The notes: generated from the sequence alone by a model not told the origin. Positions 30,107 to 60,600 are shown, numbered from the stretch's first letter. The stretch: DNA of 64,000 nucleotides from Diadema antillarum (GCF_040938485.1 NW_027271164.1:2080064-2144063); one strand, 5' to 3'. Translations and numbers: made by a program.

Positions 30107-30143
30107 CTGGAAATAAAAATGCATTTCATTGTTTGTTATACAC

Positions 30144-36764: not shown

Positions 36765-36946
36765 CTGTGAAGGCAGCGAGGGAAGGGATGTACTGGTTCC
36801 AGAAATGACACTGCCTGGCTCTGACAGCCCTCCCCGTGGGTAGCCCTACTGTCATCTCCTTGTATGTGAGGTCAGGAATGGTGTACTCTGGCCAGGCGTA
36901 CTGTCCTTCCCATGGGTCTGAATCCATGCTCGGCTTACTGGGATTT
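36765..36946 (-). CDS. CESL-3 exon 9
   Basis: Peptide NPSKPSMDSDPWEGQYAWPEYTIPDLTYKEMTVGLPTGRAVRARQCHFWNQYIPSLAAFT. Donor GTACCA. Confidence 0.7.
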
Positions 36947-37279
36947 CTTTGTAGAAGGAAACAGAAGGAAAACGGAAATCACTTTTTGCTTCTGTTTGTA
37001 ATGAAAACGTTATAAACCGAGCCTGAAGATTTATGTACCATTAGTTCACAACAGCAGGAAATCAAAGAATTTCAGTAGAACAATTCAAAAGTTGAAAGAA
37101 GTCCCAATATACATGGAAAATCTTGAACTGCTATAATCTTCCAAACATAGCCTGCATTAGTAAAACATATACATTTGAAAAAAAAAATATCATTGCCGCT
37201 TTGGGTGACATTTTACAATAAGTAATCTAATTGTAATCTGAATTAGTCTTACAGAAGACAAAGAACAAGGCGACCTTAC

Positions 37280-37474
37280 CCCGACTTTGCAAAGTTCGTC
37301 CAAAATTCCATGAACTTAACAGAGAGGGCGTTTTCATCTGCCGTCATGTTATGGCCCTTGATGTGATAAAGTTCGTCAATAAATGGAATACCCCATACGA
37401 ACGTCAGATCTTCTGAATGGGTTGCCCCAAGCCATGGAGTCGAGGGAACGATGTCTCCATACTGGAAATAGCTC
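37280..37474 (-). CDS. CESL-3 exon 8
   Basis: Peptide SYFQYGDIVPSTPWLGATHSEDLTFVWGIPFIDELYHIKGHNMTADENALSVKFMEFWTNFAKSG. Donor GTAAGG. Confidence 0.8.
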
Positions 37475-38415
37475 CTTAAAAAAGAAAACAGAAAAGGAGA
37501 GAAAGACTTGCACATATAGTATATAGGTGAAACTTGTCATAAACTGAACTGATAACTGTGGATCAAAAGTTATTTGGAAATTAAACTTATCCAAAATAGT
37601 AACGGTAATAATGATGATAATGTGTTCTCGTATTCATCATGAAATTAAAAAAAAAAACTACTATGGCTTCCAATTCCTGATACTTGCTAAACAAGCTCGG
37701 CGCATGTCTTTTCCATATCCATAAAATTAACGAGATGTACAAGATGATGATGATGACAGTAATGGCATTTAGAAAGTGCGGTATCGAGGTTGTTACAATT
37801 ACGAAGTGGGATTGGTAGAGTTCCACAGACGTAGTGCAACAGAAGAGAAGGCTCTACCCTCATAGACTTTTAGGCGGGTACTGGACACATGGAGAGTCAA
37901 TTTAGGGTAGGCCAACATAAAACAACAACAACAAACAAACAAAATGATGATGATAATAATAATAATACGTTGTAGTGTATACTTTTATAGCGCAACAGTC
38001 CATCAAAGAGATGCTCATGGCGCTTTTAGTCTTAAGGTTAGGAGAAGAAAAAAAAAGATGAACAAGAAGAAAAAGGAATTATGTGACATCTTCACTTTTT
38101 TGTTTCCTACAACATATTGAACAGATATGTTTTTAGAGATGTTTTAAATGATTCCACAGAGGATGATTGGCGAACAGTGACAGGGATATCTTTCCAAACT
38201 TTTGGTCCAATGCGGGAGAAAGAACGAGTTCACCATGAATGCTTAACCTTAGGTATCTGAAATGAAAAGTAAGTAGATGGTCGAAGTCTGCAAAGAGGGT
38301 TATAACAATATAAAGAATTCTGGATATACTCGGGTGCAGTCATAGGTAATTCAATACTGTCAAACTATAGGCAAATGAATATGTTACTGGAAAGAAAAGA
38401 AAAGTAAATGCTCAC

Positions 38416-38858
38416 TTGGTTGGTTGATGAGTCATGAAATATTGAAAGACAGGATAGCCAGCCTCGGCGTGCTCCCTGACCACCAGATCGGTCGGGCACC
38501 CGAAGTCCATGTCTCCGGACACGTCCACTATGGATCGGAAGTAGTCGGCCAAGGGGTCATCAGCCACAGTCCAGTCCACGTACTCATGTGTCGTAGCATC
38601 GACAATGATGGCGTCGTCCATTTCGACCCATGCGAGTGTGTTTTGAAGTATCTCATCAAACACGGTTCGATTGAGGTGCGGATGTTCCTCAGCTCCTGCG
38701 TAGGAGGGATAGGCGAAGTACACGAACAAGGCGGCTTTGTCCTTGTTGGATCCAACGAGGATTGGAACATCGGGAAAGTCTCCCTTGTTGTACATAGAGC
38801 GAGGGCTCTCCTGCAGAAACACCCCGTCTAGAATCACGGGATATCGGTCTGAATGAAT
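38416..38858 (-). CDS. CESL-3 exon 7 (catalytic Glu replaced: NKDKA)
   Basis: Peptide IHSDRYPVILDGVFLQESPRSMYNKGDFPDVPILVGSNKDKAALFVYF...GCPTDLVVREHAEAGYPVFQYFMTHQPT. Donor GTGAGC. Confidence 0.8.
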
Positions 38859-39418
38859 CTGGAAATGCCAAACGTTACAATTAGAAATTTATCTCGGGGT
38901 TTGGACAGTATCTCTAAGTGTAAGCAAACCTCCCACCTAACGTGTGCTGTAGGAGGAGAAAGAGATAAGTAAGAACACAGACATTCTTTCCCCATCATTT
39001 ACTCTCTTTTTTTTTGGGGGGGGGGGGGGTAATGCAAGAATTCTAATTCGCAGTCAAAATAAGAGTGGATTAAAATAATTCAAAGCGAAAAAGGCTATTT
39101 CTAAATCACAGTTTGCCGCATAACTTCCTTAAGTATTGGTCCAGGGCTCAGCAGTCAAGATATCAAGATGATATAAGTGAAAATGTTCTTGTTCACTATG
39201 TCGGTAAGACGTCCAATTGACTTTGCATCAGAATCGCAACATTTTCACATCAAGCAACTATGACCTAAATGCCGTTACGCAATACCGGTCTGTTTTTCAA
39301 AGGTTGTACGATCAAAAGTGCTGAATTCGGATCATTTTTACTACAGTGAAATGGAAAAATTAGTAAATGAAAGTAAGCAATGAGAAATTCGTGACTTTGA
39401 TCTCATTTTTTTTCTTAC

Positions 39419-39586
39419 CCTATCTCCAACTTCGCGTAGTTGAAGGGGATCCTTGGTTCTAAGGCACGACACCAATAGTTCTGAGGTGGACGTGTTACAC
39501 TCCATTGCTTCACCCACTTCTCTGGCTAACTCTCTCTCCAATTCAGGGTCATCTCTAAAGGCCCAGTTAGTCAGGGAAGTCCCACT
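39419..39586 (-). CDS. CESL-3 exon 6
   Basis: Peptide SGTSLTNWAFRDDPELERELAREVGEAMECNTSTSELLVSCLRTKDPLQLREVGDR. Donor GTAAGA. Confidence 0.75.
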
Positions 39587-39699
39587 CTGCACACAGAGAC
39601 AAGAAAGACGAAAACTACAACCATATTCACACAGTCTCTGATGTGTAAATATCAAGATATGGAAAAAAAAAAGGTTGACTATAAACGCTAAATACTTCT

Positions 39700-41670
39700 A
39701 AAAGTGGACATCTGTGAGTGACAGAATTCATCATATCCAATACTCAGTACTTCCCATATGATAGACAGCAGTGTGAAAATAAATCAGTAGCATGGATTCA
39801 TCAGCATGGTGATATGTTTCAAAGACCTCTTAATAGTGGCAGCATAATTCTGAAAATGCTGAAAATAGCGAAAGTTAATCCTGTACATAAAAAAGATGAT
39901 CCTCATGAAATTAGTAATCATCGTCCTATTTCTTTATTGCCTAGTATATCCAAAATCTTAGAAAAAATTGTTTATGATAGACTTCTTAAATTTATTAATA
40001 AGTATGATTTACTTATTCCCAATCAATATGGTTTCAGAAAAAATTATTCAACTGATTTAGCACTAATACAAATTTATGACAAAATTACGAGTGCTTTTGC
40101 AAACAAAGAACATGTTGCAGGTATATTTTGTGATTTGAGTAAAGCATTCGATACTCTTGATCATTCTATTTTACTCACCAAACTTAGTCATTATGGTATT
40201 CGAGGACAAGCACTTTTATGGCTTACAGATTATCTAACTAATAGAAGACAATATGTTATTTTTAATGGTTGTGAATCTGACCCCCTTTTAATTAAATGTG
40301 GTGTTCCTCAAGGCTCAATTCTAGGCCCATTATTATTCCTTCTTTATGTTAATGATATCATAAATACATCCTCTCTTCTCTCTTTTGTTCTATTTGCTGA
40401 TGATACGAATATATTTTATTCTCATAAAGATCTTAAGATTTTAAATGACACTTTAAATATTGAAATTAGTAAAGTATCAAATTGGTTTAAGTCTAATAAA
40501 CTTTCTTTGAATATAAAAAAGACTCATTTTATTCATTTCAAACTTCATTCTCATAATGAAGATACGTTGATACATATTAACATTGATGATATCCCATTAG
40601 AAAAGAAAATGAATTCAAAATTTCTAGGAGTATATATAGATGAAAGTTTGACTTGGAATGAGCATTTACATCATGTTACAACGTGTATTTCTAGAAATAT
40701 AGGGATAATTTCCAAGCTGAAGTTCTTTCTTCCTCGTTCAACTTTATTTCTATTATATAATTCCTTAATTCTCCCATATATAAGTTATTGCAATGTTGTA
40801 TGGGGTACTTGCGGCTCTACCAAAATAAATTCTATATTTAAATTACAAAAGAAAGTTATACGTATTTGTACAGGATCGCATTTTCCGGCTCATACTGATT
40901 CTTTATTTCATGAGCTTAAAACATTGAAGGTTTTTGATTTGAATATTATTCAAGTAGCAGTAATTATGTTCAAATATATACATCATCAACTTCCATCATC
41001 GTTTGATAACATGTTTAGGTTCAATACTTCTGTCCATTCGTACCCTACTCGTATATGTAGAAATTTCCACCTTTTGAATCCCAAATTGTTAGTGACACAT
41101 AAATCTACAAGATATTCGGGTCCGGATATTTGGAATAATCTCCCGGATAATATAAAGTCTTGTTCAAGTATTTATTCTTTGAAAGCTTCACTTAAACGAT
41201 ATTTGATACAATTATATTCTCCAAACCAATTGAGCTAACAAATATTTATAGTATAGATTGTCATCTTATTGTCAATCTCTATTTTCTTCCTTCAACTGCA
41301 TCTTGCACTCTCACCTGCAACTGCACTGCACTCACCTGATCACCTTCCTCCAAGAGAGTTATGTCGTTGGATAGTCATTTTATGAGGCCTCCATCCATTT
41401 CAAGCTTAATCGCTTATGATGGTGGTCTCCTGCATTCAATTATCTCTGTTGTTTACTGAAAAATACTGTATATTTTATTTTATGTTTCTGTGTATCTACA
41501 TTGCTCAATGCAATCACCTATGTGAATCTATTTATGTACTGTTATCGATTTATTTCACTGCACTTGTTATTCTTTGTCTTTGTACTTTTTGAAGTTTGCA
41601 TTCAAATTGCATCTGATTGAATGCAGAAATAAAAGCAAACAAACAAACAAACAAACAAATAATTCTCAAA
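39700..41670 (+). mobile_element. 5'-truncated non-LTR retrotransposon (CR1/L2-like LINE). The RT ORF is intact, there is no endonuclease domain, and the 3' end carries a (CAAA)n tail. It is antisense within CESL-3 intron 5.
   Basis: RT motifs present: RPISLLPSISKILEKIV, FRKNYSTDLAL, CDLSKAFDTLDHSILLTKL, GVPQGSILGPLLFLLYVNDI and FADDTNIF. The (CAAA)n run is at about 41632-41668. Confidence 0.8.
39718..41238 (+). CDS. LINE ORF2 reverse transcriptase, 506 aa, uninterrupted
   Basis: Taken from the six-frame track. All RT blocks are in frame, including the FADD (YXDD-type) box. Confidence 0.8.
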   Translation: MTEFIISNTQYFPYDRQQCENKSVAWIHQHGDMFQRPLNSGSIILKMLKIAKVNPVHKKDDPHEISNHRPISLLPSISKILEKIVYDRLLKFINKYDLLIPNQYGFRKNYSTDLALIQIYDKITSAFANKEHVAGIFCDLSKAFDTLDHSILLTKLSHYGIRGQALLWLTDYLTNRRQYVIFNGCESDPLLIKCGVPQGSILGPLLFLLYVNDIINTSSLLSFVLFADDTNIFYSHKDLKILNDTLNIEISKVSNWFKSNKLSLNIKKTHFIHFKLHSHNEDTLIHINIDDIPLEKKMNSKFLGVYIDESLTWNEHLHHVTTCISRNIGIISKLKFFLPRSTLFLLYNSLILPYISYCNVVWGTCGSTKINSIFKLQKKVIRICTGSHFPAHTDSLFHELKTLKVFDLNIIQVAVIMFKYIHHQLPSSFDNMFRFNTSVHSYPTRICRNFHLLNPKLLVTHKSTRYSGPDIWNNLPDNIKSCSSIYSLKASLKRYLIQLYSPNQLS

Positions 41671-42010
41671 CCAGTTACATTTTGGAGCGGTGCTTTTTTC
41701 TTTCTTCCTCATGCATTCGAACATTATCAAGTATCAAATTTTACGATGTCGTGCAATGGGCTATAACTTCCCTGCGTAAAACAAATGTCTCATTCGATAG
41801 AATGATGAATAAACCAAGGCATGCGAGATAAGTACACAGAAAAGACACTAATTAGAAATATATGTTCCTCAGAAGAAAAGAAAAGAGAAAGGAAATTTTT
41901 AAGAAGTAAGGAAGAAACAACTTGGGAAGACGCTATGGTTATAGAGACAGCATCTCAAATAGACAATTTCAAGTCATGGAATAGATGCCCCTAACCTATC
42001 TACCATATAC

Positions 42011-42129
42011 CTGCATGATGATTTTGCTGATATAAGGCCTACTCAGCTTGGAGAGGAGGAGGAGGTTGACACAAGCTGCACCCGCGCTCTGACCGAAGAG
42101 AGTTATCTGGTCCTTGTCTCCTCCAAAGG
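42011..42129 (-). CDS. CESL-3 exon 5 (nucleophile elbow, variant GQSAGA)
   Basis: Peptide [40 protein letters not shown]. Donor GTATAT. Confidence 0.8.
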
Positions 42130-42290
42130 CTGACAGCAGGCATGGAAAAAAAAAATCAGCATTTTTTAAAATCATCTGGTACAATATCTTACTTTTTGCA
42201 CTGATATCAATTTCGACAGAAGAATCATTTCAACAAAACAAATGGAACTAGAATAACATAAAATGGTTTTCTTTGTTTAGTAGCCATATA

Positions 42291-42291
<1 letters not shown>

Positions 42292-42347
<56 letters not shown>

Positions 42348-42360
42348 CATATATACATAT
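42292..42360. repeat. (AT)n microsatellite, in CESL-3 intron 4
   Basis: Direct reading. Confidence 0.9.
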
Positions 42361-42602
42361 ATTATGTACTATAAATCTACGGTATTCCTTTTTCAAAATT
42401 ACTTTGGAAATTCCTCAATATGACGACAGCCTGCGTTGCACTGAATTATGTGAGTTGAATCAAAACAGTACCTAGATATCTCTTCAAACATGCGTACGAA
42501 CCAAAGCAATAATTTATAGAGTCGTTACAATGAACTGAACTGAACTGAACTGAGCTGAACAATAGATTACAACATGCAAGACCGTTTCCAAGGAATTGTT
42601 AC

Positions 42603-42680
42603 CTTCGATATTATTGTAGACCCACTCCAGCGCTGCCACCTGATCCAACATGGCGAAATTTCCTGGTGCAACATCATCCA
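42603..42680 (-). CDS. CESL-3 exon 4
   Basis: Peptide DDVAPGNFAMLDQVAALEWVYNNIE. Donor GTAACA. Confidence 0.7.
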
Positions 42681-43145
42681 CTGAAGACGGATGTAATAGA
42701 TTCAGTAGGGTTATGAAAATGAATTACTGCGCAGTATCACCATCACTACATCAGCAGCGAAGGAAACTTTTAAATAAATTTGAACTAATCCATTTTTCAA
42801 TAATGATAGAGGATGTCAGTGTTTTCTCATTAAACCGTTATTGTAGACGGTTTAGTCTGGATACGTAACTATTGTTCACATTTTGTGTATTAAACAATAC
42901 TTAACAACGATTATACAGATTCAAAATTTTACAGTGGTTGTTTCTGTCCCTAACTTACACTTTAGAACTATTCTAAAGCACTAATGTTGGGTTTTTGTTT
43001 CTTCTGCAAATGGTAGATTATGCCTTTAACAACATCACTTTCGTAAGACTCATTATGTTTTGTGACGTCGTCTTGCATTTCTTCAGTCGATACTGATATA
43101 AGAATTGTGACTCTTACAAGAACTGTAATCGTACGAGAGTCTTAC

Positions 43146-43305
43146 TTGTAGTAAATTGTCCAAAGATCGATAATCGGTAGTTAACAGTCACGATAATGAC
43201 GTCACCGACAGCAGCTAATGGAACGCCGTAAAAGTCATACGTCATAGCAGTTCCTGTTCTGATTCCTCCTCCATGAATCCATACCATCACAGGAACAGCA
43301 GATGA
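43146..43305 (-). CDS. CESL-3 exon 3
   Basis: Peptide [53 protein letters not shown]. Donor GTAAGA. Confidence 0.75.
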
Positions 43306-43779
43306 CTGCAACATAATGTACACGGACAGAGGGTGAAAGAGAAAGAGAGCAAGCAAGAAAACAACATTTAAACCTATATTTTACAGCTTCGGGGAAGTGC
43401 ATGCTCTTACCAGGGAGGTGGAAGAGAAGCATTTTCTACCTCGCTGCTCTCACACAGTTTTTACAAGCCTTACCTTTAATTTTTTCATGAGGAGCATCCT
43501 CGCAGGTTGGTAATGGTAAAGCGCGTGACAATAATGTTGGTTAGACGTTTATGAAATTGGCTTTTCAGTTTTCATCTATTTTTTTTCTTTCGTAGGATCA
43601 CGTATATATGAAAATGGTCGGAGTAACCATGGAGCTGTGGCTCCATGGAGTAACCAATTAATTGCTCGTGCATTGTATACTGTGGGAATTTTATCCATGA
43701 GTCACACAGCCCACGAGCTCGACACTAGGTAAACAAGGCCCACAAGTCCGATACTCATTACATTATTTGGCTTAATGTA

Positions 43780-44375
43780 GCAAGGTCGGTCTCGTGGGCC
43801 TTGAATGGTTTGCCTATAGTGTCAGACTCATGGGCCTTTTTTATCTAGTGTCGGACACGTGGGCCTTGGTTGTCTACTGTCTGACTCATGGGCCCTATTT
43901 GCCTCGCGTCAAGCTCATGGACCATTTTTCATTGTCGAGCCCGTGGGCCGTAATGACTCGTGGGTATCGGGCTCGTGGGATGACTCCAAATCAAAGCCTA
44001 GATTTTTCCTAAAATATCGAGGCGTCAAGCTCATGGACCATTTTTCATTGTCGATTTCGTGGGCCGTAATGACACGTGGGTATCGGGCTCGTGGGATGAC
44101 TCAGAATCAAAGGCTAGATTTTTCCTAAAATATCGAGGCGTCAAGCTCATGGACCATTTTTCATTGTCGATTTCGTGGGCCGTAATGACTCGTGGGTATC
44201 GGGCTCGTGGGATGACTCCAAATCAAAGCCTAGATTTTTCCTAAAATATCGAGACGTCAAGCTCATGGACCATTTTTCATTGTCGATTTCGTGGGCCGTA
44301 ATGACACGTGGGTATCGGGCTCGTGGGATGACTCCAAATCAAAGCCTAGATTTTTCCTAAAATATCGAGGCGTCA
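43780..44375. repeat. Minisatellite with a 116-bp unit in about 5 copies, in CESL-3 intron 2
   Basis: The repeated unit is ggccgtaatgacNcgtgggtatcgggctcgtgggatgactcNNaatcaaagNctagatttttcctaaaatatcgagNcgtcaagctcatggaccatttttcattgtcgatttcgtg. The track ORFs 43859, 44059 and 44175 give identical peptides. Confidence 0.85.
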
Positions 44376-44452
44376 TATCTTTAAAATGAAGAGAAAATGG
44401 AATTAGACAATCCAGCCAGAGACATCTCGTGAGAGGGACAGATATTACTCAC

Positions 44453-44629
44453 CTTGTTACTCGGGGAGTACACGTTCAGATAGAGACAGTCCTCTGACAT
44501 GTAGGGGATTTCAGTGTTGTTAACCTGCAGGCAGGCTGGGGCAAACTCGGTGGCGTTTCTCTCGCCCGTCCATGGAGTCTTGCTCACTGGCTTCGCGAAA
44601 CGCTCCGGTGGATCTGCGTAGGGAATTCC
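44453..44629 (-). CDS. CESL-3 exon 2
   Basis: Peptide [59 protein letters not shown]. Donor GTGAGT. Confidence 0.8.
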
Positions 44630-44787
44630 CTACAGGCACCAACAGAAATTGTCGTCAATAATTTTAGCTCATGTATCATGCTCACTGATAGAAGTAACAG
44701 CAAGATTTCACGAGCCAAATGATATACATATCAACAGCATTGATATTATCATCACGAAGTGTCATTGAATGCAATTGTTAGTATCAA

Positions 44788-45170
44788 AGGGACTGTACAG
44801 TATACTGGTTGAGGTGAGGATTCAGGTTTATAACATTCCTAAGTGAGATAATGAGAAACCTCTTCTGAAATATGAAAGAGTATGTAATTCTAAGAAGGAT
44901 TCAATGTTTACTTGATAAAAATCGGTTTTCAAATGGCTGAGATATCCAAAAAAGTCGAAAAGGCGACAGGCCATGCCTTTTACCAGGATCTCTTTATTTC
45001 ACCTTGTTTTTGGATATCTCAGCCATTTCACAACCGATTTTCATCAAATAAACTTTTGATACCCCTTAGAATTGCATGCTCTTTGACATCTCTTAGAGTG
45101 GTTTCTGAATATCTTGCAAAACGTTAAAAGCTAAATCTTCACCTCAACCAGAACTGTACACACCCTTTAA
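44788..45170. mobile_element. MITE-like palindromic element, family M1, in CESL-3 intron 1. It is the first of a tandem pair.
   Basis: The 5' end gggactgtacagtatactggttgaggtgagga is the reverse complement of the 3' end tcacctcaaccagaactgtacacaccc. Confidence 0.6.
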
Positions 45171-45411
45171 CATGTCTCGTAATTAAATAAGGGCAGAAAA
45201 CACGAGTTCAAATAAAATATTAAGTAGAAAAGTGCGGAGGTGTGCACCTTCTCGAGCGCGTCTCTTTAATGAATGTATGATACATCTACTCAAAAGTTCT
45301 GCCTTATAACTTTATACTTTTGTTTCGTCTTTAATCTATAATGTTTACCCATTTAATCGTGTGATTTTAATGCTTTTTTTTCCCATACTGACATATTTTT
45401 TCAAGCACTTT

Positions 45412-45748
45412 AAAGGGGCTGTACAGTACTGGCTGAGGTGGGGATTCATGTTTTTTTACATTTCTAAGTGAGATAATGAGAAACCTCATATGAAATATGA
45501 AAGAGCATGGCTGAGATATTCCAAAAAGTAAAAGACTACTAGTATACAGGCCACGCCTTTTATTAGGATCTCTTTGTTTCACCTTGTTTTGGTATCTCGG
45601 CCATTTCAAAACCGATTTTCATCAAATAAACTTTTGATGCCCCTTAGAATTGCATGCTCGTTGCCATCTCATAGAGTGGTTTCTGAATATCTCGCAAAAT
45701 GTTAAAAGCTAAATCCTCGCCTCGACCAGAACTGTACACACCCTTTAA
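45412..45748. mobile_element. MITE-like palindromic element, family M1, second of the tandem pair
   Basis: It runs ggggctgtacagtactggctgaggtgggga ... ctcgaccagaactgtacacaccctttaa. Confidence 0.6.
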
Positions 45749-45878
45749 AACCATCTCCAAGTTGTTAAATGGGAGTCATTACAAGCAGCTTATTAGTATT
45801 TTATATTTAGCCTAAAGGATAAGAGAACCGAGCATTACTTGTAAAAGAATGCGTTCAGATATAGCTCATTGGACTCAC

Positions 45879-46040
45879 CAGAAATACATCGACATCGACC
45901 GTCTTGTTGATGTAAGTGCTTTCGCTGAACCTCACCATTTCCCCTACCAGGATTCCCTCAGTGACATTCACTTTGGGATCAGCGGACTCACCCTTCCCAA
46001 TGAGGGCAATACTTATCAGCACCACAAAGCCCAATTTCAT
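45879..46040 (-). CDS. CESL-3 exon 1
   Basis: ATG at 46040. Peptide MKLGFVVLISIALIGKGESADPKVNVTEGILVGEMVRFSESTYINKTVDVDVFL. Donor GTGAGT. Confidence 0.8.
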
Positions 46041-47094
46041 TTTCCCCTCGTGGTGTTATATCGACTGTAACAGTTCAAAATATGGCGTGTAAGTCCCTGG
46101 AAACTATCAAAGAAATCTGTCGGGAAAAGGAGCAAGCATTGAAATTCGTAACACCTGACAAGTATCCCCTCTTTGAAGCCATGCACTATCAATTGAATGT
46201 CAATGTTTGTCCTCCTTTCCCTCTCCCGCGCTGTCTCAGAAAAAAAAAAATCACCATTATTGACATACAAGGCTGGATAGCAAGATATGCAAGTCATACA
46301 ATGTTTTGTTGACAGTATTCATCACGGGACTCTTGAAAGAAATATCATCGGGGTCTTCGAGGTTATCAGAGCTACTTAAAACTCCTTAAACCTTTATTAA
46401 ATTGAAATCATAACCGTCAAGAGGGTCGTTACGTATGGCAAAGCGGCAAGGTGTGGTATTGCAGAGATAGATATTAATCAATTTTACACCATTATTTTCT
46501 GTGTGATATGCTTTCTGTCATAATAAACAAGAATGTTGAATTAATTTCTAGTCGCACTTTATTGCCTTGATGACTCGATGAGCAACGCAGATTTGTTTGG
46601 TGTTTAAATAAATATTTATGTTGAATGTAGATTTTATATGCTTACCTCACTTTTTACAGTCATGATAGTAATCTGGTTTAGATATGGAGAGGAGTTGACC
46701 AACCTAACTCAAGAGCAGGGATGAGACTGCAAGACATCATGCGAAATACAATTCACTCTAATTTCATTCATTATCACTCAATGTTTATTTCAATTGTTTG
46801 TCAAATTGCGACTTATTTCATTGATGAAAATATGAAAGGTGCAAATTTTGCAAATAATCAAAGATTCCCAACGAGTCCGATCCCTGACCACCCTGTCTTC
46901 TCGTACATTTGAACTCGACATCATGAACTCGGGGCCATGACAGTGTCAGCGTGTGTCACTGTGTGCATAGCGTGTCGTGTTTTGTGTATAATGAATACCG
47001 TGAACCAGCGCGTGACGTTCATCGCCGAAAAACAATTGTCAACATTCAGAATAAAGGTTATAACCGGAGGGCCAAACCCCAAAAAGTCGCTTAC

Positions 47095-47965
47095 TTAACG
47101 AGTGAGTTGCACTCTCTCTACAAACTAAGTAGACCATGCTTATTTTCAAGTTTTTATTGTAACAAACAACATTCCACTGGTCTACCTCAAAAAATTTGTT
47201 GCGAAAGCCTCCAAATCCAAGATGGCGTCCAAGATGGCCGCCATATTTACTGAATTTGTTATTTGAAAGATAGAATTTGATTGAAAGATCAGATTTCAAC
47301 AAATGTGATGTCATATGAAAGAGAATAAAATTTTCTACAAGTTGATACTATTTTTGTGGGTTTGAGATTTTAAGGAAAAAACACTCATTTTTTGATATTT
47401 TTCTGAAAAAAGGAAAATCATGAAAATGCTTGATTCAGCATAAATCAGAGAAAGACTGAAGGATTATCTTGAAACGTTTCAAGAATTTTGTTTGACATAT
47501 AATTAATATTTCGAGAAAATTAGGGGTCAGTACCTATTTTGGTTCAGGAGTTATAATGTCTCAAACTTGAAAACTCACTATGTAAAAATGGCCACTTTAG
47601 TTGTGACAATACCTTGTTGGTCGTAAAAAGAGCCTGCGCGCGCCAAGACTACTACACGCACCACTTACACTGGCGCTTGTAGCAGTGCCAGTGGTGCGTG
47701 TAGTAGTCTTGGCAAACGCAGACATTTTCTTTGACAAACAAGGGTTTGTGCCTGCAAACTAACTTTTCATACCAAGTGGCAGCTCAGGTGACGCTGATTG
47801 CTATTATTTCAAAGTAGATTGTTCTGAAGCAGATGAGATGAAGCAAAAATATCTTTCAAATAGAGGTAGAAGCTTGAAATAACCTTGCTATAGAAAGTTT
47901 AAAACAAAATCTGGATCAATCACTCAAAAAATTCAAGATTGCAGGCCATCAAAGCTGACATAGTG
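47095..47965. repeat. Left arm of a large inverted-repeat complex (about 870 bp). It contains a 170-bp internal sub-palindrome at 47590..47760.
   Basis: This arm is the reverse complement of 50575..51470. The track ORFs 47039..47314(-) and 51233..51559(+) share an identical 70-aa translation. Confidence 0.8.
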
Positions 47966-48179
47966 TATTGCGCCAAAGTAAATGTATTATTTCGTTTTTG
48001 ATACAATTTTGTCTGTTGTGCTATCTTAAACCGTCTTAGGTTTTTATGGACACATTTTTAGAACTAGTGATATTCTACTCTCCGAAAAAGAAAAAAAAAA
48101 TCGAGTGGAAGTTTTTGCTTTTGATGTGAGGAGTGAATAACAAGAAAACGGTGAATTTAGAGTGAAATTGGAGTGACTT

Positions 48180-48480
48180 TTGAGTGAAAATGTTCATTTT
48201 CACTCATTTTAGAGTGACCTTAATAGGCAGGGCTCTACACTAACTTTTATTTTTGGTGGCCCAAAGGCAAATATCCGATCTTTATTGGTGGCCCGATCAG
48301 GCCACCTATGTTCTTCATTTCTGACATTTTGGTGGCCCGACGTGCGTTTTTGGTGGCCCCGGGCCACCGGACCACCGTTAGTGTCGAGCCCTGCCTTAGG
48401 GATCACTTGTCACTCTTCGAGTGATCCCCGAGGTCACTCTAAAATGAATGAAAATGAACATTTTCACTCTCGAGTGATCC
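48180..48480. repeat. Inner hairpin at the core of the 47-51.5 kb inverted-repeat complex
   Basis: gagtgaaaatgttcattttcactcattttagagtgacc is the reverse complement of ggtcactctaaaatgaatgaaaatgaacattttcactc. The loop is GC-rich, with ggtggccc repeated. Confidence 0.65.
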
Positions 48481-50574
48481 TGATATCTAATATGGGAAAG
48501 CATCTACCAATGGCATAAGCTCATATCAATTGTGACACTATAACCCACATGAAATCAGCCTAAAAACAATGTAAGAAAAATCTGGTAACAGAAAATACAG
48601 TTTCAGCATGCTTATTTGTAAATGTGAATATACAGCACGAATAATCAATTTGGACAATTTTATTCGAACAATATACTGAAAAGTAATTTCGCACAACACA
48701 TTTTGCACAACAAAGTTGAGAAATTGCCGCCATGTCGGATTTTTTTTTAATTTTATTTATTTATTTTTTTGGGGGGAGGGGGTTCGGATCAGAAGGGCTT
48801 TCAAGGACATCTACGGATCAGACATTATTACACATATACCATCATCATTCAGGCGTTTCTACAACAGCAGAGTAACATACAAGTAAAAAAGCATATCTTT
48901 GATACAGAAGCATTTCTTTTTTATCAAAGATTGGGCCTTACCCTAACACTGGAATGAGCTCCACCCCCCACCCCCCACCCAAAAAAAAAAGACCCTCAAT
49001 ATGGTTTACACTAGCACAATATCGTTCGGATGTATAGGAACATGTAATAGACAGCAATATAAGAAGATTAAAAAAATATATCAAATTATAAGTTATAAGT
49101 TGAGATTTAACTTTGACGCAACACACTAAAGGTATTCTACCATTGGGAGAGATATCACATTCGATTTATATGTGCAGGTTAGTTGTATTACAAAACATTC
49201 TACCATGTAAAAAAATTATGATAAAGCCTAAAACATACGGAGATATCACCATTGCTTTTCAAGAAACCATAGCCATAACTGTTGACAATTTAGTATATAA
49301 AAAAAACATTCTTATCAGATCTATTTAGTATATCTAACAATATTTAGCATTGATTATACTGATTTCAGTTTGTACATTAGTTGTTCTATCCCTAACTCAC
49401 AGTTTAGAACTAGTTTGAGGAATTAAGTAAAGCTGGGTTTTTGTTTTACGTGCACTAATGGTAAATAATGCCTTGAACGACAACCTCGATTAATTAACGC
49501 CATCTTGAATTTTGTGTGGATACTATTTTTATCGCTAAATATTACACATTGGCAAAATTTGTGCCAAATTCCAAGCTCCTATCTCTTTTTGGAAAATACT
49601 TTCTGTTCAATTTTATCTGCCTCAGAACAATCTACTATGATGAAATGCTACAGTAATAGCGATCAGCGTCACCTACCACTTGGCATGAAAAGTTAGTTTG
49701 CAGGTACTTGCAAGTCACTAGACCGTTACAGTATTACATGTGACCATGTAAACACATTGTATGCAAAATTTATAATGCATAAATGTAATTTGTTCAAGTT
49801 TTAGACGTTAACTTGTCAATAGTGTATGATATTGCCTGTAATTCCAGAAATATGAATTATATCTCAATCTCAGTAAATCTCAATCTCAATCGCAGGTTTC
49901 AAAATAATTCTTCAGTTCTTCTTTGATAAATACTAAATCATGCATTTTCACATTTCTTCCTTTTTCCAAACAATATAAAAATATGGATCCCCCCCCCCCC
50001 AATTTATCACAATACACAGCTAAAGTGGTATCGACTTTTAGGAAGTTTTACTCTCCTTCATATGACATCAAATGTGTTGCAATCCAATGTCTCTATCAAA
50101 TTTTATGTTTGAAATGTTAACTTCAATAAAAATGGCGGCCCTATTGGACCGCATTTGTACTTTGGAGGTTTTTGCAACAAATCTATTGAGGTGTACTTAA
50201 GGAACATTGCTTAGTATGCTTAATATTATGTATGGTCTTGTTTATAGAGAGAGTGGAACTCGATAGTAAGCTTGATCTTGGATTTGACCCTCTGTGACGT
50301 CTTTGGGAACAGATGCGTGTAAATGCATATTATATAAAATGGGATTTCAAGTTTGAGACATTATAACTCCTGAACCAAATACAATACTGACCTCTAATTT
50401 TTTAAAAACTTTTTAGAGAAATATTCATGGTGCATTCTGAAAAAAAAAATGTCTCCGTAAAAACCTAAGATGGTTTGAAATGGCATTAAAATGTTCAGAA
50501 TATATAAAAACCATATAAATAGACAGCAAAACAGACAAAATTGTTTCAAAATCGAAATGATACATTTACTTTGG

Positions 50575-51470
50575 CTCAATACACTATGTCAGCTTTGATG
50601 GCCTGCAATCTTGAATTTTTTGAGTGATTGATCCAGATTTTGTTTTAAACTTTCTATAGCAAGGTTATTTCAAACTTCTACCTCTATTTGAAAGATATTT
50701 TTGCTTCATCTCATCTGTTTCAGAACAATCTACTTTGAAACAATAGCAATCAGCGTCACCTGAGCTACCACTTGGTATGAAAAGTTAGTTTGCAGGCACA
50801 AACCCTTGTTTGTCAAAGAAAATGTCTGCATTTGCCAAGACTACTACACGCACCACTGGCACTGCTACAAGCGCCAGTGTCAGTGGTGCGTGTAGTAGTC
50901 TTGGCGCGCGCAGGCTCTTTTTACGACCAACAAGGTATTGTCACAACTAAAGTGGCCATTTTTACATAGTGAGTTTTCAAGTTTGAGACATTATAACTCC
51001 TGAACCAAAAACGGTACTGACCCCTAATTTTCTCGAAATATCAATTATATGTCAAACAAAATTCTTGAAACGTTTCAAGATAATCCTTCAGTCTTTCTCT
51101 GATTTATGCTGAATCAAGCATTTTCATGATTTTCCTTTTTTCAGAAAAATATCAAAAAATGAGTGTTTTTTCCTTAAAATCTCAAACCCACAAAATTAGT
51201 ATCAACTTGTAGAAAATTTTATTCTCTTTCATATGACATCACATTTGTTGAAATCTGATCTTTCAATCAAATTCTATCTTTCAAATAACAAATTCAGTAA
51301 ATATGGCGGCCATCTTGGACGCCATCTTGGATTTGGAGGCTTTCGCAACAAATTTTTTGAGGTAGACCAGTGGAATGTTGTTTGTTACAATAAAAACTTG
51401 AAAATAAGCATGGTCTACTTAGTTTGTAGAGAGAGTGCAACTCGACCTCTGTTTTTAGCTTTTGGCCCCC
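50575..51470. repeat. Right arm of the inverted-repeat complex. A partial third copy lies at 50100..50440.
   Basis: This arm is the reverse complement of the left arm. The same gtttgcaggcacaaacccttgt...ccaagactactacacgcaccac sub-palindrome lies at 50770..50940. Confidence 0.8.
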
Positions 51471-52101
51471 CGGTTATTATAAGAAATGCGTCCTCCTCCA
51501 CGTTACAGATGAAGATATTTGCCTCTTTAGAAGAACGTGTACTGAAGAATGTTTTGTAACTTGGCCTATTGAATTCAAGCTTTGTTTGATGCTGAACCCA
51601 ATTTCCCCCAGTCAATATGGTATAATGTATAATGTCTTGGTAAGCACACCTTGTGTAACATTTTGTGAATAATAATGTTATGAAAAAGACGATTCACCCC
51701 TTCTTTTTTTATGTTTGAAGGTCAGTATAATGTGATTCTTTGTGGCTGAATCTTGCCGACAGAGATTGCTAGATTGGAGTCAATAAAATCCTAGGAACTA
51801 GATCTCAAAATATCCAGAAATCTTGTGGCATCAAGTTATGGGATAATGCATATATATGAAGAGTTTGTTTGCAAAAACCGATAAGTCCATATTTGCCAAA
51901 TGGAGATATTTGCAATTAAAGGTCGAGAAAAATAAAGAGAATAATAAGAAAACTTTTGCTTCTTTTGACCATAACTTCAGAAATGTACCTTTATATGTAG
52001 TTACCAATATATTATTTACGAGGTATTATTTTGTACTTTATGACAGAGACCGTCCTTCAAAATCTTCAAAAATGGACTTATCGGTTTTTGCGAACAAACT
52101 C

Positions 52102-52143
<42 letters not shown>

Positions 52144-55460: not shown

Positions 55461-55640
55461 TAGGTGATAGAGTAGTTTGCAGGCACAAACCCTTGTTGGT
55501 CGTAAAGGAGTCTGCGCCAAGACTACTACATGCACCACTTTGGCACTGTCCCATAGGCCCTGTGTTGAAGCTTCTCCCATCATATTAGTCTTGGCGCATG
55601 CAGACTCCTATACGACCAACAAGGGTTTGTGCCTGCAAAC
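55461..55640. mobile_element. Solo 180-bp hairpin MITE of the same family as the sub-palindromes in the 47-51 kb complex
   Basis: agtttgcaggcacaaacccttgttggtcgtaaaggagtctgcgccaagactactacatgcaccac ... is a perfect reverse complement of ... ggcgcatgcagactcctatacgaccaacaagggtttgtgcctgcaaact. Confidence 0.7.
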
Positions 55641-56289
55641 TAGTGATAGAGCGTGTGTGTGTGTGTGGGGGGGGGGGGGGGTCCTCCCAGGCCTTTTCGC
55701 CATAAAAACTCCAAAAGGGCATATTTTTGGTGTACATATTCTTTTTAGTGTTCCTCACAAATGTAAGTGAAACATTGTGCAATCAAAATATTTTCTAAAG
55801 TATTCTGTTGTTTCTTTAATTTCTGACGTATTTCCTTGTCTGTCGACTTTTTGTTTTTCATCGTTTTTCGATGATCTTTGTCGGTGACACTGCTGCGAGG
55901 GTGAAAATATGTCACTGACTGAATATCGACAAAAAAGAAAAACAAAAGGAAAAATAAACATTTACAAATGAAATTTTGCAGAATGTTAATTTACATCGAA
56001 GTTGTACATGGATTCACGTTTTTGAGCAAGTTAGGTCTGACATGTATGTAGAGCCTACATAATATCGTTACGCGTAATTTCAAAACCGCTCGCCCAGGCG
56101 GCGCAAATTTGATCTCAAAAGGTGCGAGAGACTGGAAAGTAAAAGAGTAGTGAAACATCGCGAAGATAGTTGTTTCTTTCTTCTTTTTTTTCGATGGTGA
56201 CATGTCGCGTGAAATGTCGAAGGGGGCTCCCAGCAACCCCCCCCCCCCTCGATTTAGTAAAGGTTAAGGGGACGGCTGGTAATCCATAC

Positions 56290-57929: not shown

Positions 57930-60600
57930 AATGACTGTCGGGCTTCCACTGCCAAGAAAGCGGTATGCCACAATGATCAGCGCCTACACACCCACGATGA
58001 CCAGCCCTGATGATGTCAAGGAAAGGTTCAATGAGAACCTGCAAGCAACCATTCCCACTGTGTCCAGATTAGATAAACTCATCACCCTTGGTGACTTCAA
58101 AGCTAGGGTCAGCACCGACTATGCATCATGGAAAGGAGTCCCAGGGAAGATGGTCTGGGCAAATGCAATAGATGGCTTATTGCTACTGGAAACCTGCGCC
58201 TTCACCGAGCAGACCTCAACGACCCGACATCAGCGTCCAAGAAAGCTGCTTTTTTTTTCAACATCAGAAGAAGCGTACAGCTGGAACTACGGCAAATGCA
58301 GAATGCACGGCTGAGCGATAAAGCTGTTAAGATCCAGTCTTATCCTAATGGCAACGACATGGAAAACTGCTACAGAGAATACCGGATCACTTCAAACAAA
58401 ATTTGAAGATCTAGTTAAGTATTTTTATATCCCTTTATATGCACTGGACTTGTACTGCCACTGCCTGGTAATTTGTATATAAATTATATGTTATCTCCTA
58501 TGGCGACCAAGGATGACATCTCATAGCGCTTTTTATAGTGAAAAAGGCGCTCTTAAAATATCAACTATTATTAGAGCGCTCAAGATTTGTATTTGGACCA
58601 ACTTCGTTGGGACTGTCTCCCCCAGTGCAGATGGAAACTACTGATCACAGATCAGAAAAAGGTTCTTGAACGCTGGGCAGAACAGTTCAGAAATGTCCTC
58701 AATGGTCGATCCAGCTGCCATCAGCGAGGAAGCGATCACAAGGCTGCTCCAGGTTCCAACCAATCACTCACTTGCCAATATCGCCACAGAAGCTGTCGTG
58801 CGATGGAAGAAGCAGTAAAACACATATCTTGTGAAAAAGCACCCGGCGCTGACTCCATCCCTGCAAAAATCTGCGCCTCTGGTCGCCAAACCCTCACCAG
58901 AAAGCTCACTGAGCTATTCCAATCTGTATGGAACCAAGAGAAAATCCCGCAGAAACCCTTTGGATGCTTCTATCGTCCATTTGTACATGAGCGCAAAGGA
59001 AATCGACAAGCGTGCGACAACCACCACGGCATCTCGTTGCTATTTGTTATCGAAAAGATCTTTTGCCAGAATCTTGTTGAACCGCCTGATCGACCACTTA
59101 GAGGAAGGCTGACTACCTGAACGTCAACGCGGGTTCAGACAGGGTCGCAGTACAGTGGTTATGATTTTCGCAGTACGTCAACTCCAAGAGAAATGCCAGG
59201 AGCAGAGCTAGTGTCGGTATCTACACCACCTTCGTAGACCTGACTAAGGCTTTTGACACCGTATGCCGAGAAGGACTCCGGATGATCATGCCCAAGTTTG
59301 GCTGCCCTGCAACGCTCATCTCACTGGTCAGACAGTTCCATGACTGCATCCGAGCTAACGTGCAGGATGGTGATGAACGCTCAGAGCCCTTCCCTGTCAT
59401 AAACGGCGTGAAACAAGGCTGCGTCCTCGCCCCTACCCTCTTTAGTATGGTGTTCGCTCATCTATGCAGACAGATGCATTTCGTGAGGGTGGCATCGGAG
59501 TGGACTGCAAATTTAGAACTGATGGAAATCTGTTCAACGTACGGAGACTGCAGACAAAATCAAAACTCCAGGGGGGTATCGCCCGTGACTTTCTTTTTGC
59601 TGATGACTGTGCCCTGTATGGCAGAACCCAGTCTGACATGCAGGAAAGCATTGACCAATTCGCCAATGCCTGTGACGACTTCGGTCTGACGATAAGCATA
59701 AAGAAGACTTTAGTGATGCATCAGCCCAGGGAAGTGGGAAGAGAGTTTCCCACCTCCCTGATCAGCCAGCTCCTGCAATAATTCACTATACACAAAGCCA
59801 ACCATCACGGTCAACGGCGAGAAGTTGAAAGTGGCAGAAAAATTTGTTTACCTATCTAAAGTAGCACACTGTCACGAAATATCTACATTGAAGAAGTCGC
59901 GAAGTTTCCCGCAGAATTGCCAGGGCCTGCTCGGCTGTCAGCAGACTCAGAGACAGGGTGTAGGAGAGAAGAGGAAAATCTTCAAAACAAAGTAAAGCTG
60001 TGCCGCGCAGTCGTCATACCCTCTCTACTGTACACCTGCCAAACATGGACAGTGTACAGCCGGCATGCCAGGCAGGTGAACTCCTTCCACATGAGATGCC
60101 TCCGAAATCTGCTACACGTAAAATGGCAAGGGAAGGTGCCAGACACCGAAATACTTCAGGGAGACCAGATGGAGAGTTTTGATGCGATGCTCAAGCGCTC
60201 CCAACTCAGATGGGCCGGGCATGTACTTCGAATGGCCGACGAACATTTGCCAAAGTGACTGCTCTACGGTGAACTAATGGAAGGCAAGCGCTCTCAAGGA
60301 GGTCAGAAGATTGAAGCGCTACAAGGACACACTATATAAAAGCTTGGATGAAATGCTGCAGCGTCAATCGTGACACATGGGAAGTAACGGCACAAGACCG
60401 ATCTTCCTGGCGATCCGTGGTCAGCTCTGGTTTATAAGGCTACGAAGTGAAACGTGTGGACGAGCAGGAACAACTACGGCAGCAACGAAAAATAGCAGAG
60501 CAACCTCTCAGCCTGGCCTACCTTCGGCATTTCCATGTACACACAAACACACTGCACCAGATTTTTCAGAACGAGGATCGGACTGATTAGCCATCTTCGC
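57930..60600 (+). mobile_element. Decayed non-LTR retrotransposon carrying an APE endonuclease C-terminal part, an RT and a C-terminal domain. It is broken by frameshifts and stops and lies antisense in CESL-4 intron 5.
   Basis: Track ORFs show LITLGDFKARV (APE), GVKQGCVLAPTLFSMVF, FLFADDCALY and GLTISIKKTLVMHQ (RT), and MRCLRNLLHVKWQGKVPDTEILQ...RWAGHVLRMADEHLPK (C-terminal domain). These lie in different frames. Confidence 0.7.

What the first reader, a model, noticed from the sequence alone, without database searches (positions are those of the whole stretch)
47040..51560. 4.5-kb nested inverted-repeat complex between CESL-3 and CESL-4, built from a hairpin MITE family that also occurs as a solo element
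Arms of about 870 bp (47095..47965 against 50575..51470) flank a core of about 2.6 kb. Each arm contains a 170-bp sub-palindrome (gtttgcaggcacaaacccttgt...ccaagactactacacgcaccac...), and a third partial arm copy lies at 50100..50440. The core has its own inverted repeat at 48180..48480 with GGTGGCCC repeats. The same sub-palindrome occurs alone as a perfect 180-bp hairpin at 55461..55640. The whole looks like a composite or foldback DNA transposon assembled from MITE-like units. No transposase ORF is visible.
Basis: seen in the sequence. Interest (0 to 1): 0.55.

Follow-up and report, generated by a model that had tools for sequence, protein, structure and literature searches.

The report
Long inverted repeat from transposon debris
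Two near-identical 1-kb non-coding segments face each other across 2.4 kb of repeat debris between two carboxylesterase genes; this is most likely a dead, non-autonomous long-inverted-repeat DNA transposon, an ordinary feature of animal-type genomes.

Summary
The gapless arms are 47104-48026 and 50521-51443 (923 nt, 98.3% identical). With indels they extend outward to 47060/51477 and inward to about 48067/50434.

The window is eukaryotic: tandem carboxylesterase genes on the minus strand, with LINE reverse transcriptases in their introns. Nothing in the 4.4-kb complex codes for protein, and the arms contain no tandem sub-repeats.

- **Arms:** Each arm carries the same one-end-truncated copy of a hairpin MITE, about 15% of the arm.
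- **Solo MITE:** A complete copy lies at 55473-55642 and has a perfect 9-bp target-site duplication.
- **Core:** The core is a mosaic of repeats. It holds a 317-bp palindromic MITE, a 250-bp dispersed repeat, an old arm copy (49540-50300, 72-75% identical) and an 80-bp arm fragment.
- **Outer ends:** The old copy ends within about 8 nt of the repeat's outer ends. This argues for transposon termini rather than arbitrary duplication breakpoints.
- **Target-site duplication:** The junctions lie in a palindromic motif, so the duplication is ambiguous. The best candidate is GGTTATAA/GGTTATTA.

No public collection searched held related DNA, so copy number and mobility remain untested.

Verdict: an ordinary, foldback-like, non-autonomous transposon relic. 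Interest is low.

The parts
47056..47063 (+). Candidate left target-site duplication, GGTTATAA. It is part of the 10-bp palindrome GGTTATAACC.
   Evidence: it matches GGTTATTA at 51472-51479 in 7 of 8 positions. Alternative readings are TTA, CCGG and GGTTAT. The evidence is weak: on random control grids of the same size (26 x 28 boundary positions) an exact direct repeat of 6 nt or more appears in 19%.
47064..48067 (+). Left arm (long terminal inverted repeat, about 1.0 kb). The gapless core is 47104-48026.
   Evidence: 923 nt at 98.3% to the right arm. nhmmer covers 47060-48059 (E = 1.9e-274).
47604..47761 (-). Hairpin-MITE copy embedded in the left arm, truncated at one end.
   Evidence: 71-75% identical to the solo MITE. 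It lacks the terminal GTTTGTGCCTGCAAACTA on one side.
48168..48484 (.). Nested palindromic MITE-like element in the core, with four TTGGTGGCCC motifs in its centre.
   Evidence: pair I9: 39-nt arms, 97%; self reverse-complement hit, E = 1e-20; z = -14.7.
49273..49524 (+). Copy of a dispersed repeat that also occurs at 42834-43093, in an intron of the neighbouring esterase gene.
   Evidence: 74% over 161 nt; nhmmer E = 4e-16.
49540..50300 (+). Old, inner-truncated third copy of the arm ('T'), in the orientation of the right arm. It lacks most of the hairpin MITE.
   Evidence: 72-75% identical to both arms (nhmmer E = 6e-63 and 9e-61). Its outer end lies within about 8 nt of the repeat's outer end.
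50330..50408 (+). Orphan fragment of about 80 nt from arm module B.
   Evidence: 84% over 79 nt; 93% over 57 nt to 50975-51031, 89% to 47516-47572.
50434..51471 (-). Right arm (long terminal inverted repeat). The gapless core is 50521-51443. It carries a 43-nt insertion near the inner end and a rearranged segment of about 20 nt near the outer end.
50786..50943 (+). Hairpin-MITE copy embedded in the right arm, truncated at one end.
   Evidence: DNA fold -51.9 kcal/mol, z = -10.
51472..51479 (+). Candidate right target-site duplication, GGTTATTA.
55464..55651 (+). Complete solo hairpin MITE (55473-55642, 170 nt, 43-nt terminal inverted repeats starting TAGTTTGCAGGCAC). It is flanked by a perfect 9-bp target-site duplication GTGATAGAG (55464-55472 and 55643-55651) and lies in an intron of the fourth esterase gene.
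   Evidence: pair I7; z = -15; 9/9 direct repeat exactly at the repeat ends.

Best explanation
The complex at about 47064-51471 is one degenerate, non-autonomous class II (cut-and-paste) transposon with very long terminal inverted repeats, a foldback-like architecture.

**Structure.**
- The two arms of about 1.0 kb are its terminal inverted repeats.
- The 2.4-kb middle domain has no coding capacity. It is a mosaic of other repeats: a nested palindromic MITE, a dispersed 250-bp repeat, an old arm-like copy and an arm fragment.
- The hairpin MITE inside each arm is a passenger. It was already in the arm sequence, and already truncated, before the two arms became copies of each other. This could have happened by arm duplication, by elongation of the inverted repeats, or by gene conversion between arms.

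**How it would work (inferred, not shown).**
- A transposase encoded elsewhere would bind the outer termini, 5'-(G)GAGGGCCAAA. It would then excise and reinsert the whole unit, duplicating a short target sequence.
- The best candidate target duplication is 8 bp, GGTTATWA, in a palindromic site.
- The element is probably now immobile, because its right terminus is rearranged. It has no host function beyond possible side effects of a long inverted repeat about 1 kb upstream of an esterase gene.
For: **Shown by tool results.**
- The arms are 923 nt at 98.3% identity. With indels they extend to symmetrical outer and inner ends.
- No Pfam match at E <= 1 was found for the ten longest (64 aa or more) of the 19 stop-free frames of 55 aa or more.
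- An independent, much older copy of the arm (T, 72-75% identical) stops being homologous to the arms at GAGGG(C/T)CAAA. Only 2 of the next 8 positions match, where about 72% would be expected (binomial p = 0.008). The repeat's outer ends therefore coincide, within about 8 nt, with the end of a repeat unit that exists independently. That is expected for transposon termini and not for arbitrary duplication breakpoints.
- Neither arm alone has flanking direct repeats above background (a single 4-nt match for the left arm and two for the right). The whole unit has several candidates of 5-8 nt at its junctions, up to 8 nt with 7 matches.
- Both arms carry the identical truncated MITE at the mirrored position.
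- The MITE family is truly mobile: the solo copy has a perfect 9-bp target-site duplication.

**From the literature.** Transposase-less copies of long-inverted-repeat transposons with this geometry are documented.
- A 4,306-bp Galileo copy has inverted repeats of 1,575 and 1,608 bp at 97.5% identity. Its repeats were extended by insertion of other elements and by recruitment of non-repeat sequence, and it prefers a palindromic target motif (PMC4168063).
- Foldback elements have non-coding middle domains of variable composition (PMC4079207).
Against: - **Target-site duplication.** The junctions sit in the palindrome GGTTATAACC, which yields alternative direct repeats of 3, 4, 6 and 8 nt. On random control grids an exact direct repeat of 6 nt or more occurs in 19%, and a 4-nt palindrome in the terminal 8 nt occurs in about 30%.
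- **Copy number.** No second full L-core-R copy is known. Copy number and mobility could not be tested, because no accessible collection contains this genome.
- **Sub-repeats.** The arms lack the tandem sub-repeats typical of classical foldback elements.
- **Unpaired old copy.** The old copy T sits alone, with no inverted partner, so the arm unit can exist outside an inverted pair.
- **Right terminus.** About 20 nt near the right terminus are rearranged relative to the left arm and to T.
- **Uneven divergence.** Mismatches per quarter of the arm, from outer to inner, are 0, 4, 3, 9 (chi-square p = 0.015). This hints at gene conversion or a composite history rather than one simple event.
Confidence: 0.5

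Rival explanations
1. Local inverted segmental duplication. A transposon-derived segment of about 1 kb already present here, next to the older copy T, was copied in reverse orientation 2.4 kb away by a replication or repair error. It may since have been kept similar by gene conversion. The structure as a whole never transposed.
For: - No other copy of the young arm exists in the 64-kb window.
- The target-site duplication is ambiguous.
- Divergence is uneven along the arms (0, 4, 3, 9 mismatches per quarter, p = 0.015), as gene-conversion tracts would produce.
- The arms share up to 8 nt (ATAACCGG, 47060-47067) beyond the terminus defined by T.
Against: - The repeat ends within about 8 nt of the independent terminus of the arm family, as defined by T. 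A random duplication breakpoint would not be expected to land there.
- The shared extra nucleotides are equally well read as a near-palindromic target-site duplication.
- The spacer is large and asymmetrical. That is not what fold-back priming at a short hairpin would leave without later insertions.
Confidence: 0.22
2. Two independent insertions of the same young repeat of about 1 kb, in opposite orientations near an older relative. This would be a transposon nest or local-hopping hotspot. The DNA between the arms would be ordinary intergenic sequence.
For: - The arm unit exists on its own (copy T).
- Several MITEs and repeat fragments crowd the 7.7-kb intergenic region, whereas the two neighbouring intergenic regions are only about 2.1-2.4 kb.
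- The outermost 20-45 nt differ between the arms, as two family variants might.
Against: - Neither arm has terminal inverted repeats of its own, nor a flanking direct repeat above background.
- The arms have no poly-A tail on the appropriate strand, nor any other sign of a retroposed unit (sequence).
- Two insertions with exactly matching inner ends, 2.4 kb apart, would be required.
Confidence: 0.15
3. The inverted repeat is used by the host as a hairpin-RNA locus. Read-through from the upstream esterase gene (minus strand) would transcribe both arms. The resulting stem of about 1 kb would be diced into small RNAs that silence the arm family.
For: - Only the geometry supports this: arms of about 1 kb at 98% identity.
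- The complex lies about 2.3 kb downstream of the 3' end of the fourth esterase gene, on the transcribed side.
- Hairpin-RNA loci of this type are documented in Drosophila (PMC10317233, listed; only its title and abstract were read).
Against: There is no expression or small-RNA evidence. Rfam gives only sub-threshold, generic hairpin matches to miRNA models. The 2.4-kb loop and the transposon-debris content fit neutral junk equally well.
Confidence: 0.05
4. Assembly artefact: a chimeric or mis-joined contig creates a false inverted duplication.
For: Inverted duplications are a known class of long-read assembly error (general knowledge). No read data were available to check.
Against: - The arms differ at 16 positions and by indels.
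- The spacer is 2.4 kb of unique, asymmetrical sequence, and the window has no N gaps.
- Artefactual palindromes are normally perfect and have no spacer.
Confidence: 0.03

Closest known systems
Transposase-less long-inverted-repeat copies of Galileo (P superfamily, Drosophila)
   Same: - Overall geometry matches: a copy of about 4.3 kb with terminal inverted repeats of about 1-1.6 kb at 97-98% identity and no transposase.
- Galileo's inverted repeats were lengthened by embedded foreign elements and recruited internal sequence.
- It prefers a palindromic target motif (PMC4168063).
   Different: - There is no sequence relationship, and the host is not identified.
- Galileo makes 7-bp target-site duplications with consensus GTANTAC. 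Here the candidates are 3, 4, 6 or 8 nt and none is 7.
- No THAP-type transposase or its binding repeats could be looked for.
Classical foldback elements (FB of Drosophila, Tetris, Tm1, the sea-urchin foldback element of Liebermann et al. 1983, FARE)
   Same: Long inverted termini, a non-coding middle domain of variable composition, frequent rearranged forms, and target-site duplications of 8-10 bp (PMC4079207; PMC3169594). The best candidate here is 8 bp.
   Different: The arms have no tandem sub-repeat (outer) domain, which is the hallmark of these families. A true example with 47-50-bp sub-repeats sits in the same window at 4965-8100, and its termini are not significantly similar to those of this complex.
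Foldback-type or Mutator-like MITEs with 9-bp target-site duplications (for the solo hairpin element)
   Same: It is 170 nt, almost entirely self-complementary and non-coding, and has a perfect 9-bp target-site duplication. Duplications of 8-10 bp are the signature cited for Mutator/foldback families (PMC4079207, PMC3169594).
   Different: No autonomous partner or transposase is known. Merlin-type elements (8-9 bp, from my own knowledge) cannot be excluded. Only one complete copy and two truncated copies were seen.
PIF/Harbinger (Tourist-like) non-autonomous elements
   Same: One reading of the junctions gives a TTA target-site duplication, the TWA type of this superfamily (own knowledge), with about 5% chance expectation. 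The termini are G/C-rich (GGGCC...).
   Different: The TTA reading requires termini (TAACCGG...) that the older copy T does not share. Inverted repeats of 1 kb are atypical for this superfamily. No transposase or Myb-like ORF is present.

Membership tests
Foldback-like / long-inverted-repeat class II transposon | Long terminal inverted repeats (hundreds of bp to kb) of high identity | tested here: met
   923 nt gapless at 98.3%, about 1.0 kb with indels.
Foldback-like / long-inverted-repeat class II transposon | Middle domain of variable composition without coding capacity (non-autonomous copies) | tested here: met
   The ten longest stop-free frames (64 aa or more) gave no Pfam hit at E <= 1. 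The core is a mosaic of other repeats.
Foldback-like / long-inverted-repeat class II transposon | Tandem sub-repeats (outer domain) within the inverted repeats | tested here: not met
   Tandem Repeats Finder finds only a 12-nt unit x 1.9 in each arm.
Foldback-like / long-inverted-repeat class II transposon | Target-site duplication flanking the complete element (8-10 bp in most families) | tested here: inconclusive
   GGTTATAA / GGTTATTA (7 of 8) lies directly outside the T-defined termini, within 1-3 nt. The junctions are palindromic, and the controls show such repeats are common by chance.
Foldback-like / long-inverted-repeat class II transposon | Multiple dispersed copies with different flanks (mobility) | not testable with these tools
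   The genome is absent from all searchable collections. The only external hit was a chance 22-mer. Within the window there is one extra old arm copy (T).
MITE (solo element 55473-55642) | Short (<600 bp), non-coding, with terminal inverted repeats | tested here: met
   170 nt with 43-nt inverted repeats at 98%; fold z = -15.
MITE (solo element 55473-55642) | Target-site duplication exactly at the ends of the inverted repeats | tested here: met
   Perfect 9-bp GTGATAGAG on both sides.
MITE (solo element 55473-55642) | High copy number in the genome | not testable with these tools
   Three copies in 64 kb, two of them inside the arms.
Composite transposon built from two independent elements | Each flanking unit is itself a complete element with its own termini | tested here: not met
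   The arms have no inverted repeats of their own, and no flanking direct repeat above background (a single 4-nt match for the left arm, two for the right). The embedded MITE is truncated.
PIF/Harbinger | 3-bp TWA target-site duplication | tested here: inconclusive
   TTA/TTA is possible with termini TAACCGG (chance about 5%), but T does not share those termini.
Galileo / P superfamily | 7-bp target-site duplication (GTANTAC) and a THAP-domain transposase | tested here: not met
   The ten best-ranked junction candidates (4-8 nt) include no 7-bp repeat, and there is no coding capacity.
DIRS-like retroelement (inverted terminal repeats plus internal complementary region) | Reverse transcriptase and tyrosine-recombinase ORFs, plus an internal region closely matching the ends of the terminal repeats | tested here: not met
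   No ORFs. The internal arm-like copy is only 72-75% identical.
Penelope-like element with inverted pseudo-LTRs | Hammerhead ribozyme motif in the repeats; reverse transcriptase and GIY-YIG ORF | tested here: not met
   The Rfam scan at E <= 1 gave no hammerhead hit, and there are no ORFs.
Hairpin-RNA (endo-siRNA) locus | Transcription through both arms and small RNAs mapping to the stem | not testable with these tools
   No expression data. Only the inverted-repeat geometry is met.

The most novel reading that the evidence does not exclude
The inverted repeat is a transcribed hairpin-RNA locus. Read-through from the upstream esterase gene would yield a double-stranded RNA stem of about 1 kb, whose small RNAs repress the arm and MITE families, or influence the esterase gene 1 kb downstream. 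In that case a dead transposon would have been co-opted for RNA silencing inside a tandem detoxification-gene cluster.
Probability: 0.05. Interest if true: 0.45.

Novelty: new member of a known kind. Interest (0 to 1): 0.15.

Why it matters
It matters little beyond annotation.
- The region should be masked as transposon-derived, and its boundaries corrected.
- A 1-kb inverted repeat at 98% identity inside a tandem carboxylesterase cluster is a potential substrate for ectopic recombination, inversion, or mis-assembly.
- The hairpin MITE with a clean 9-bp target-site duplication is a usable seed for defining a Mutator- or foldback-type family in this genome.
- If the inverted repeat proved to be transcribed, it would be a candidate endo-siRNA source.

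Tried and rejected
**External copies.**
- Exact-product look-ups of the two arm ORFs found nothing.
- A protein search with an esterase exon, meant to identify the organism, found nothing. The protein collection therefore seems to lack this lineage, and I ran no further search on arm ORFs.
- A metagenome scan for the arm terminus found nothing.
- Scans for the MITE terminus gave no viral hit and one metagenome hit, which was a chance 22-mer in an unrelated contig with no BLAST similarity to the window.

**Empty sites in paralogous regions.** The flanks of the complex and the intron around the solo MITE have no detectable homology to the corresponding regions of the other gene copies. No empty-site test was possible.

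**Link to the other foldback element (4965-8100).** The termini looked similar by eye (GCCAAA...GAGTGAGT). However, local-alignment scores of 21-26 equal the background over the whole window, so I rejected the link.

**The 60 nt left of the solo MITE.** nhmmer extended the match into arm module C, but the alignment is weak and equivocal. I did not rely on it.

**Other element classes.** DIRS-like, Penelope-like, Helitron and SINE/LINE-tail readings were considered and rejected. There are no ORFs, no hammerhead, and no 3' poly-A in the sense orientation, and the internal copy is too diverged.

**miRNA matches.** The Rfam matches are all far below gathering scores (22-30 bits against 58-100) and are generic to perfect hairpins.

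**CCGG as a target-site duplication.** I rejected this as evidence, because a 4-nt palindrome in the last 8 nt of the repeat occurs in about 30% of controls.

Full report
**Context.**
- The window is eukaryotic: about 38% G+C with abundant microsatellites.
- It holds a tandem array of intron-containing genes on the minus strand whose exons match Pfam COesterase (PF00135; E = 1e-13, 1e-13 and 8e-8 for three exons).
- LINE-type reverse-transcriptase ORFs lie in the introns (RVT_1, E = 8e-35).
- From the paralogous exon repeats and ORFs, the gene copies lie at about 12200-22334, 24450-33600, 36047-46049 and 53776 to beyond 64000.
- The finding lies in the 7.7-kb spacer between the third and fourth copies, about 1 kb upstream of the first exon of the third. 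The two neighbouring spacers are only 2.1-2.4 kb.
- The organism could not be identified. The large protein collection returned nothing for an esterase exon.

**The observation.**
- The inverted repeat is real. Arms 47104-48026 and 50521-51443 are 923 nt without gaps and have 16 mismatches, 8 transitions and 8 transversions (98.3%).
- A MAFFT alignment with flanks shows the repeat continuing outward. It crosses a rearranged stretch of 20-30 nt to ATAACCGG(A/G)GGGCCAAA at 47060 / 51477.
- It also continues inward, across a 43-nt indel, to about 48067 / 50434.
- Each arm is therefore about 1.0 kb, the unit about 4.4 kb and the spacer about 2.4 kb.
- Mismatches are not spread evenly. By quarters from outer to inner they number 0, 4, 3, 9 (chi-square p = 0.015).

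**Anatomy of the arms.**
- From the outer to the inner end, an arm contains the terminus, module A, module B, a hairpin sub-palindrome, module C and an inner segment of about 210 nt.
- Module A holds a conserved pair of AAGATGGCGGCC-like motifs (7 matches in the window against 0.18 expected). Module B is about 80 nt.
- The sub-palindrome (47604-47761 / 50786-50943) is 71-75% identical to the complete 170-nt element at 55473-55642. It lacks about 17 nt of one terminus.
- The sub-palindrome makes up about 15% of an arm and is truncated identically in both arms. It was therefore already part of the arm when the arms became copies of each other.
- The arms have no tandem sub-repeats.
- The ten longest stop-free frames (64 aa or more) gave no Pfam match at E <= 1.
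- Rfam gives only sub-threshold matches of the perfect hairpins to miRNA models.

**Anatomy of the core.** Between the arms lie:
- a palindromic MITE-like element at 48168-48484, with 39-nt arms at 97%, fold z = -14.7 and four exact TTGGTGGCCC;
- low-complexity sequence;
- a 250-nt repeat (49273-49524) that also occurs in an intron of the third gene at 42834-43093;
- an old third copy of the arm, T (49540-50300). It has the orientation of the right arm and is 72-75% identical to both arms. It lacks the inner 210 nt and most of the sub-palindrome but retains the palindrome's first 14 nt;
- an orphan module-B fragment of about 80 nt (50330-50408), 93% identical to the right arm.

**The hairpin MITE is a genuine mobile element.**
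- The solo copy has 43-nt terminal inverted repeats (98%) and folds at -63.8 kcal/mol (z = -15).
- It is flanked exactly at the ends of its inverted repeats by a perfect 9-bp direct repeat, GTGATAGAG.
- It is not a perfect hairpin, since about 60 central nucleotides are unpaired.
- Target-site duplications of 8-10 bp are the signature cited for foldback/Mutator-type families (PMC4079207; PMC3169594).

**Is the 4.4-kb unit one element, two insertions, or a local duplication?** The key internal evidence is copy T.
- Its homology to the arms stops at GAGGG(C/T)CAAA. Only 2 of the next 8 positions match, where about 72% would be expected (p = 0.008).
- The outer ends of the repeat thus fall within about 8 nt of the end of a repeat unit that exists independently. 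This is expected for transposon termini and unexpected for an arbitrary duplication breakpoint.
- The nucleotides the arms share beyond that terminus belong to a 10-bp palindrome (GGTTATAACC). They can equally be read as a direct repeat, GGTTATAA (47056-47063) against GGTTATTA (51472-51479).
- Other readings (TTA, CCGG, GGTTAT) exist. Controls show how weak this is. An exact direct repeat of 6 nt or more occurs in 19% of random grids. A 4-nt palindrome in the last 8 nt occurs in about 30%. A 3-nt repeat at offsets 0-1 occurs in 5%.
- Neither arm alone has inverted repeats of its own or a flanking direct repeat above background. This argues against two independent insertions and against a composite of two complete elements.

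**Best explanation (confidence about 0.5).**
- This is one non-autonomous class II element with very long terminal inverted repeats and a scrambled, non-coding middle domain. It is probably immobile now, because about 20 nt near the right terminus are rearranged relative to the left arm and to T.
- Mobilisation by a transposase supplied in trans is inferred, not shown.
- The closest documented parallels are transposase-less Galileo copies. One example is 4,306 bp with inverted repeats of 1,575 and 1,608 bp at 97.5% identity. Galileo's inverted repeats were lengthened by embedded elements and recruited internal sequence, and it has a palindromic target motif (PMC4168063).
- Foldback elements in general are also close parallels (PMC4079207).
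- The complex fails one hallmark of classical foldback elements, the tandem sub-repeat domain, so I describe it as foldback-like rather than as a member.

**Rivals.**
- A local inverted duplication kept similar by gene conversion (about 0.22).
- Two independent insertions (about 0.15).
- A co-opted hairpin-RNA locus (about 0.05).
- An assembly artefact (about 0.03). The arms differ at 16 sites and by indels, the spacer is unique, and there are no N gaps.

**What could not be done.** Copy number and an empty-site test would be decisive, but they need the source genome or related genomes. None of the accessible collections contains them. Paralogous spacers and introns within the window are too diverged to serve as empty sites.

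**Verdict.** The interpretation as a transposon-derived foldback-like structure is reasonable, but 'assembled from MITE units' is not supported. This is an ordinary kind of repeat structure for an animal-type genome, and interest is low.

Noticed in passing
window 4965-8100: A second, unrelated palindromic structure of about 3.1 kb, with classical foldback architecture. The arms are about 1.2-1.5 kb at 87-94% identity and are packed with 47-50-nt tandem sub-repeats (AATGTCATAACACGTCGACGACAAATGTCAAAAT...). There is almost no middle domain. Its right end coincides exactly with the point where homology to the paralogous spacer resumes (8100 ~ 23645, 92% over 1 kb). The candidate target-site duplication is ATTT or CATTT. 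Its termini are not significantly similar to those of the 47-51-kb complex.
   Followed up: partly
window 51850-52112: Another MITE-like element (263 nt, 46-nt terminal inverted repeats at 96%), abutting a (TA)n microsatellite on its right side. The target-site duplication cannot be called because of the TA repeats.
   Followed up: partly
window 47219-47247, 51300-51328, 50129-50140: AAGATGGCGGCC-like motifs, which from memory resemble a YY1/PHO-type core, are paired in each arm and retained in the 72%-identical old copy T. There are 7 matches in the window against 0.18 expected. This may be a conserved protein-binding or promoter motif of the arm family.
   Followed up: no
window 1427-3053 vs 19896-22334: Segments around the first exon of two esterase gene copies are 98% identical, whereas the other copies are 64-82% identical (66-74% for these same first-exon segments). 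This indicates a very recent duplication or gene conversion within the tandem array.
   Followed up: no
window 16841-17140 and 17187-17486: A 300-nt direct repeat, 100% identical, at 346-nt spacing inside an intron.
   Followed up: no
window 43790-44485: A 116-nt tandem repeat array of about 6 copies, with the central copies 95-97% identical, inside the third esterase gene region.
   Followed up: no
window 39718-41238 and 58587-60258: LINE-type reverse-transcriptase ORFs on the plus strand inside introns of the minus-strand esterase genes. One is an intact 506-aa ORF (RVT_1, E = 8e-35) and the other is fragmented.
   Followed up: partly
window 49273-49524 vs 42834-43093: A dispersed repeat of about 250 nt is shared between the core of the complex and an intron of the adjacent esterase gene, immediately next to an exon. 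The family is unknown.
   Followed up: no
window 55660-55682 and 56237-56248: A long G run directly follows the solo MITE's right target-site duplication and a (GT)n tract. It has an inverted C-run partner about 550 nt away (35 nt, 74% complementary). Similar (GA)n-poly-G tracts occur at 114-169 and 18963-19018.
   Followed up: no
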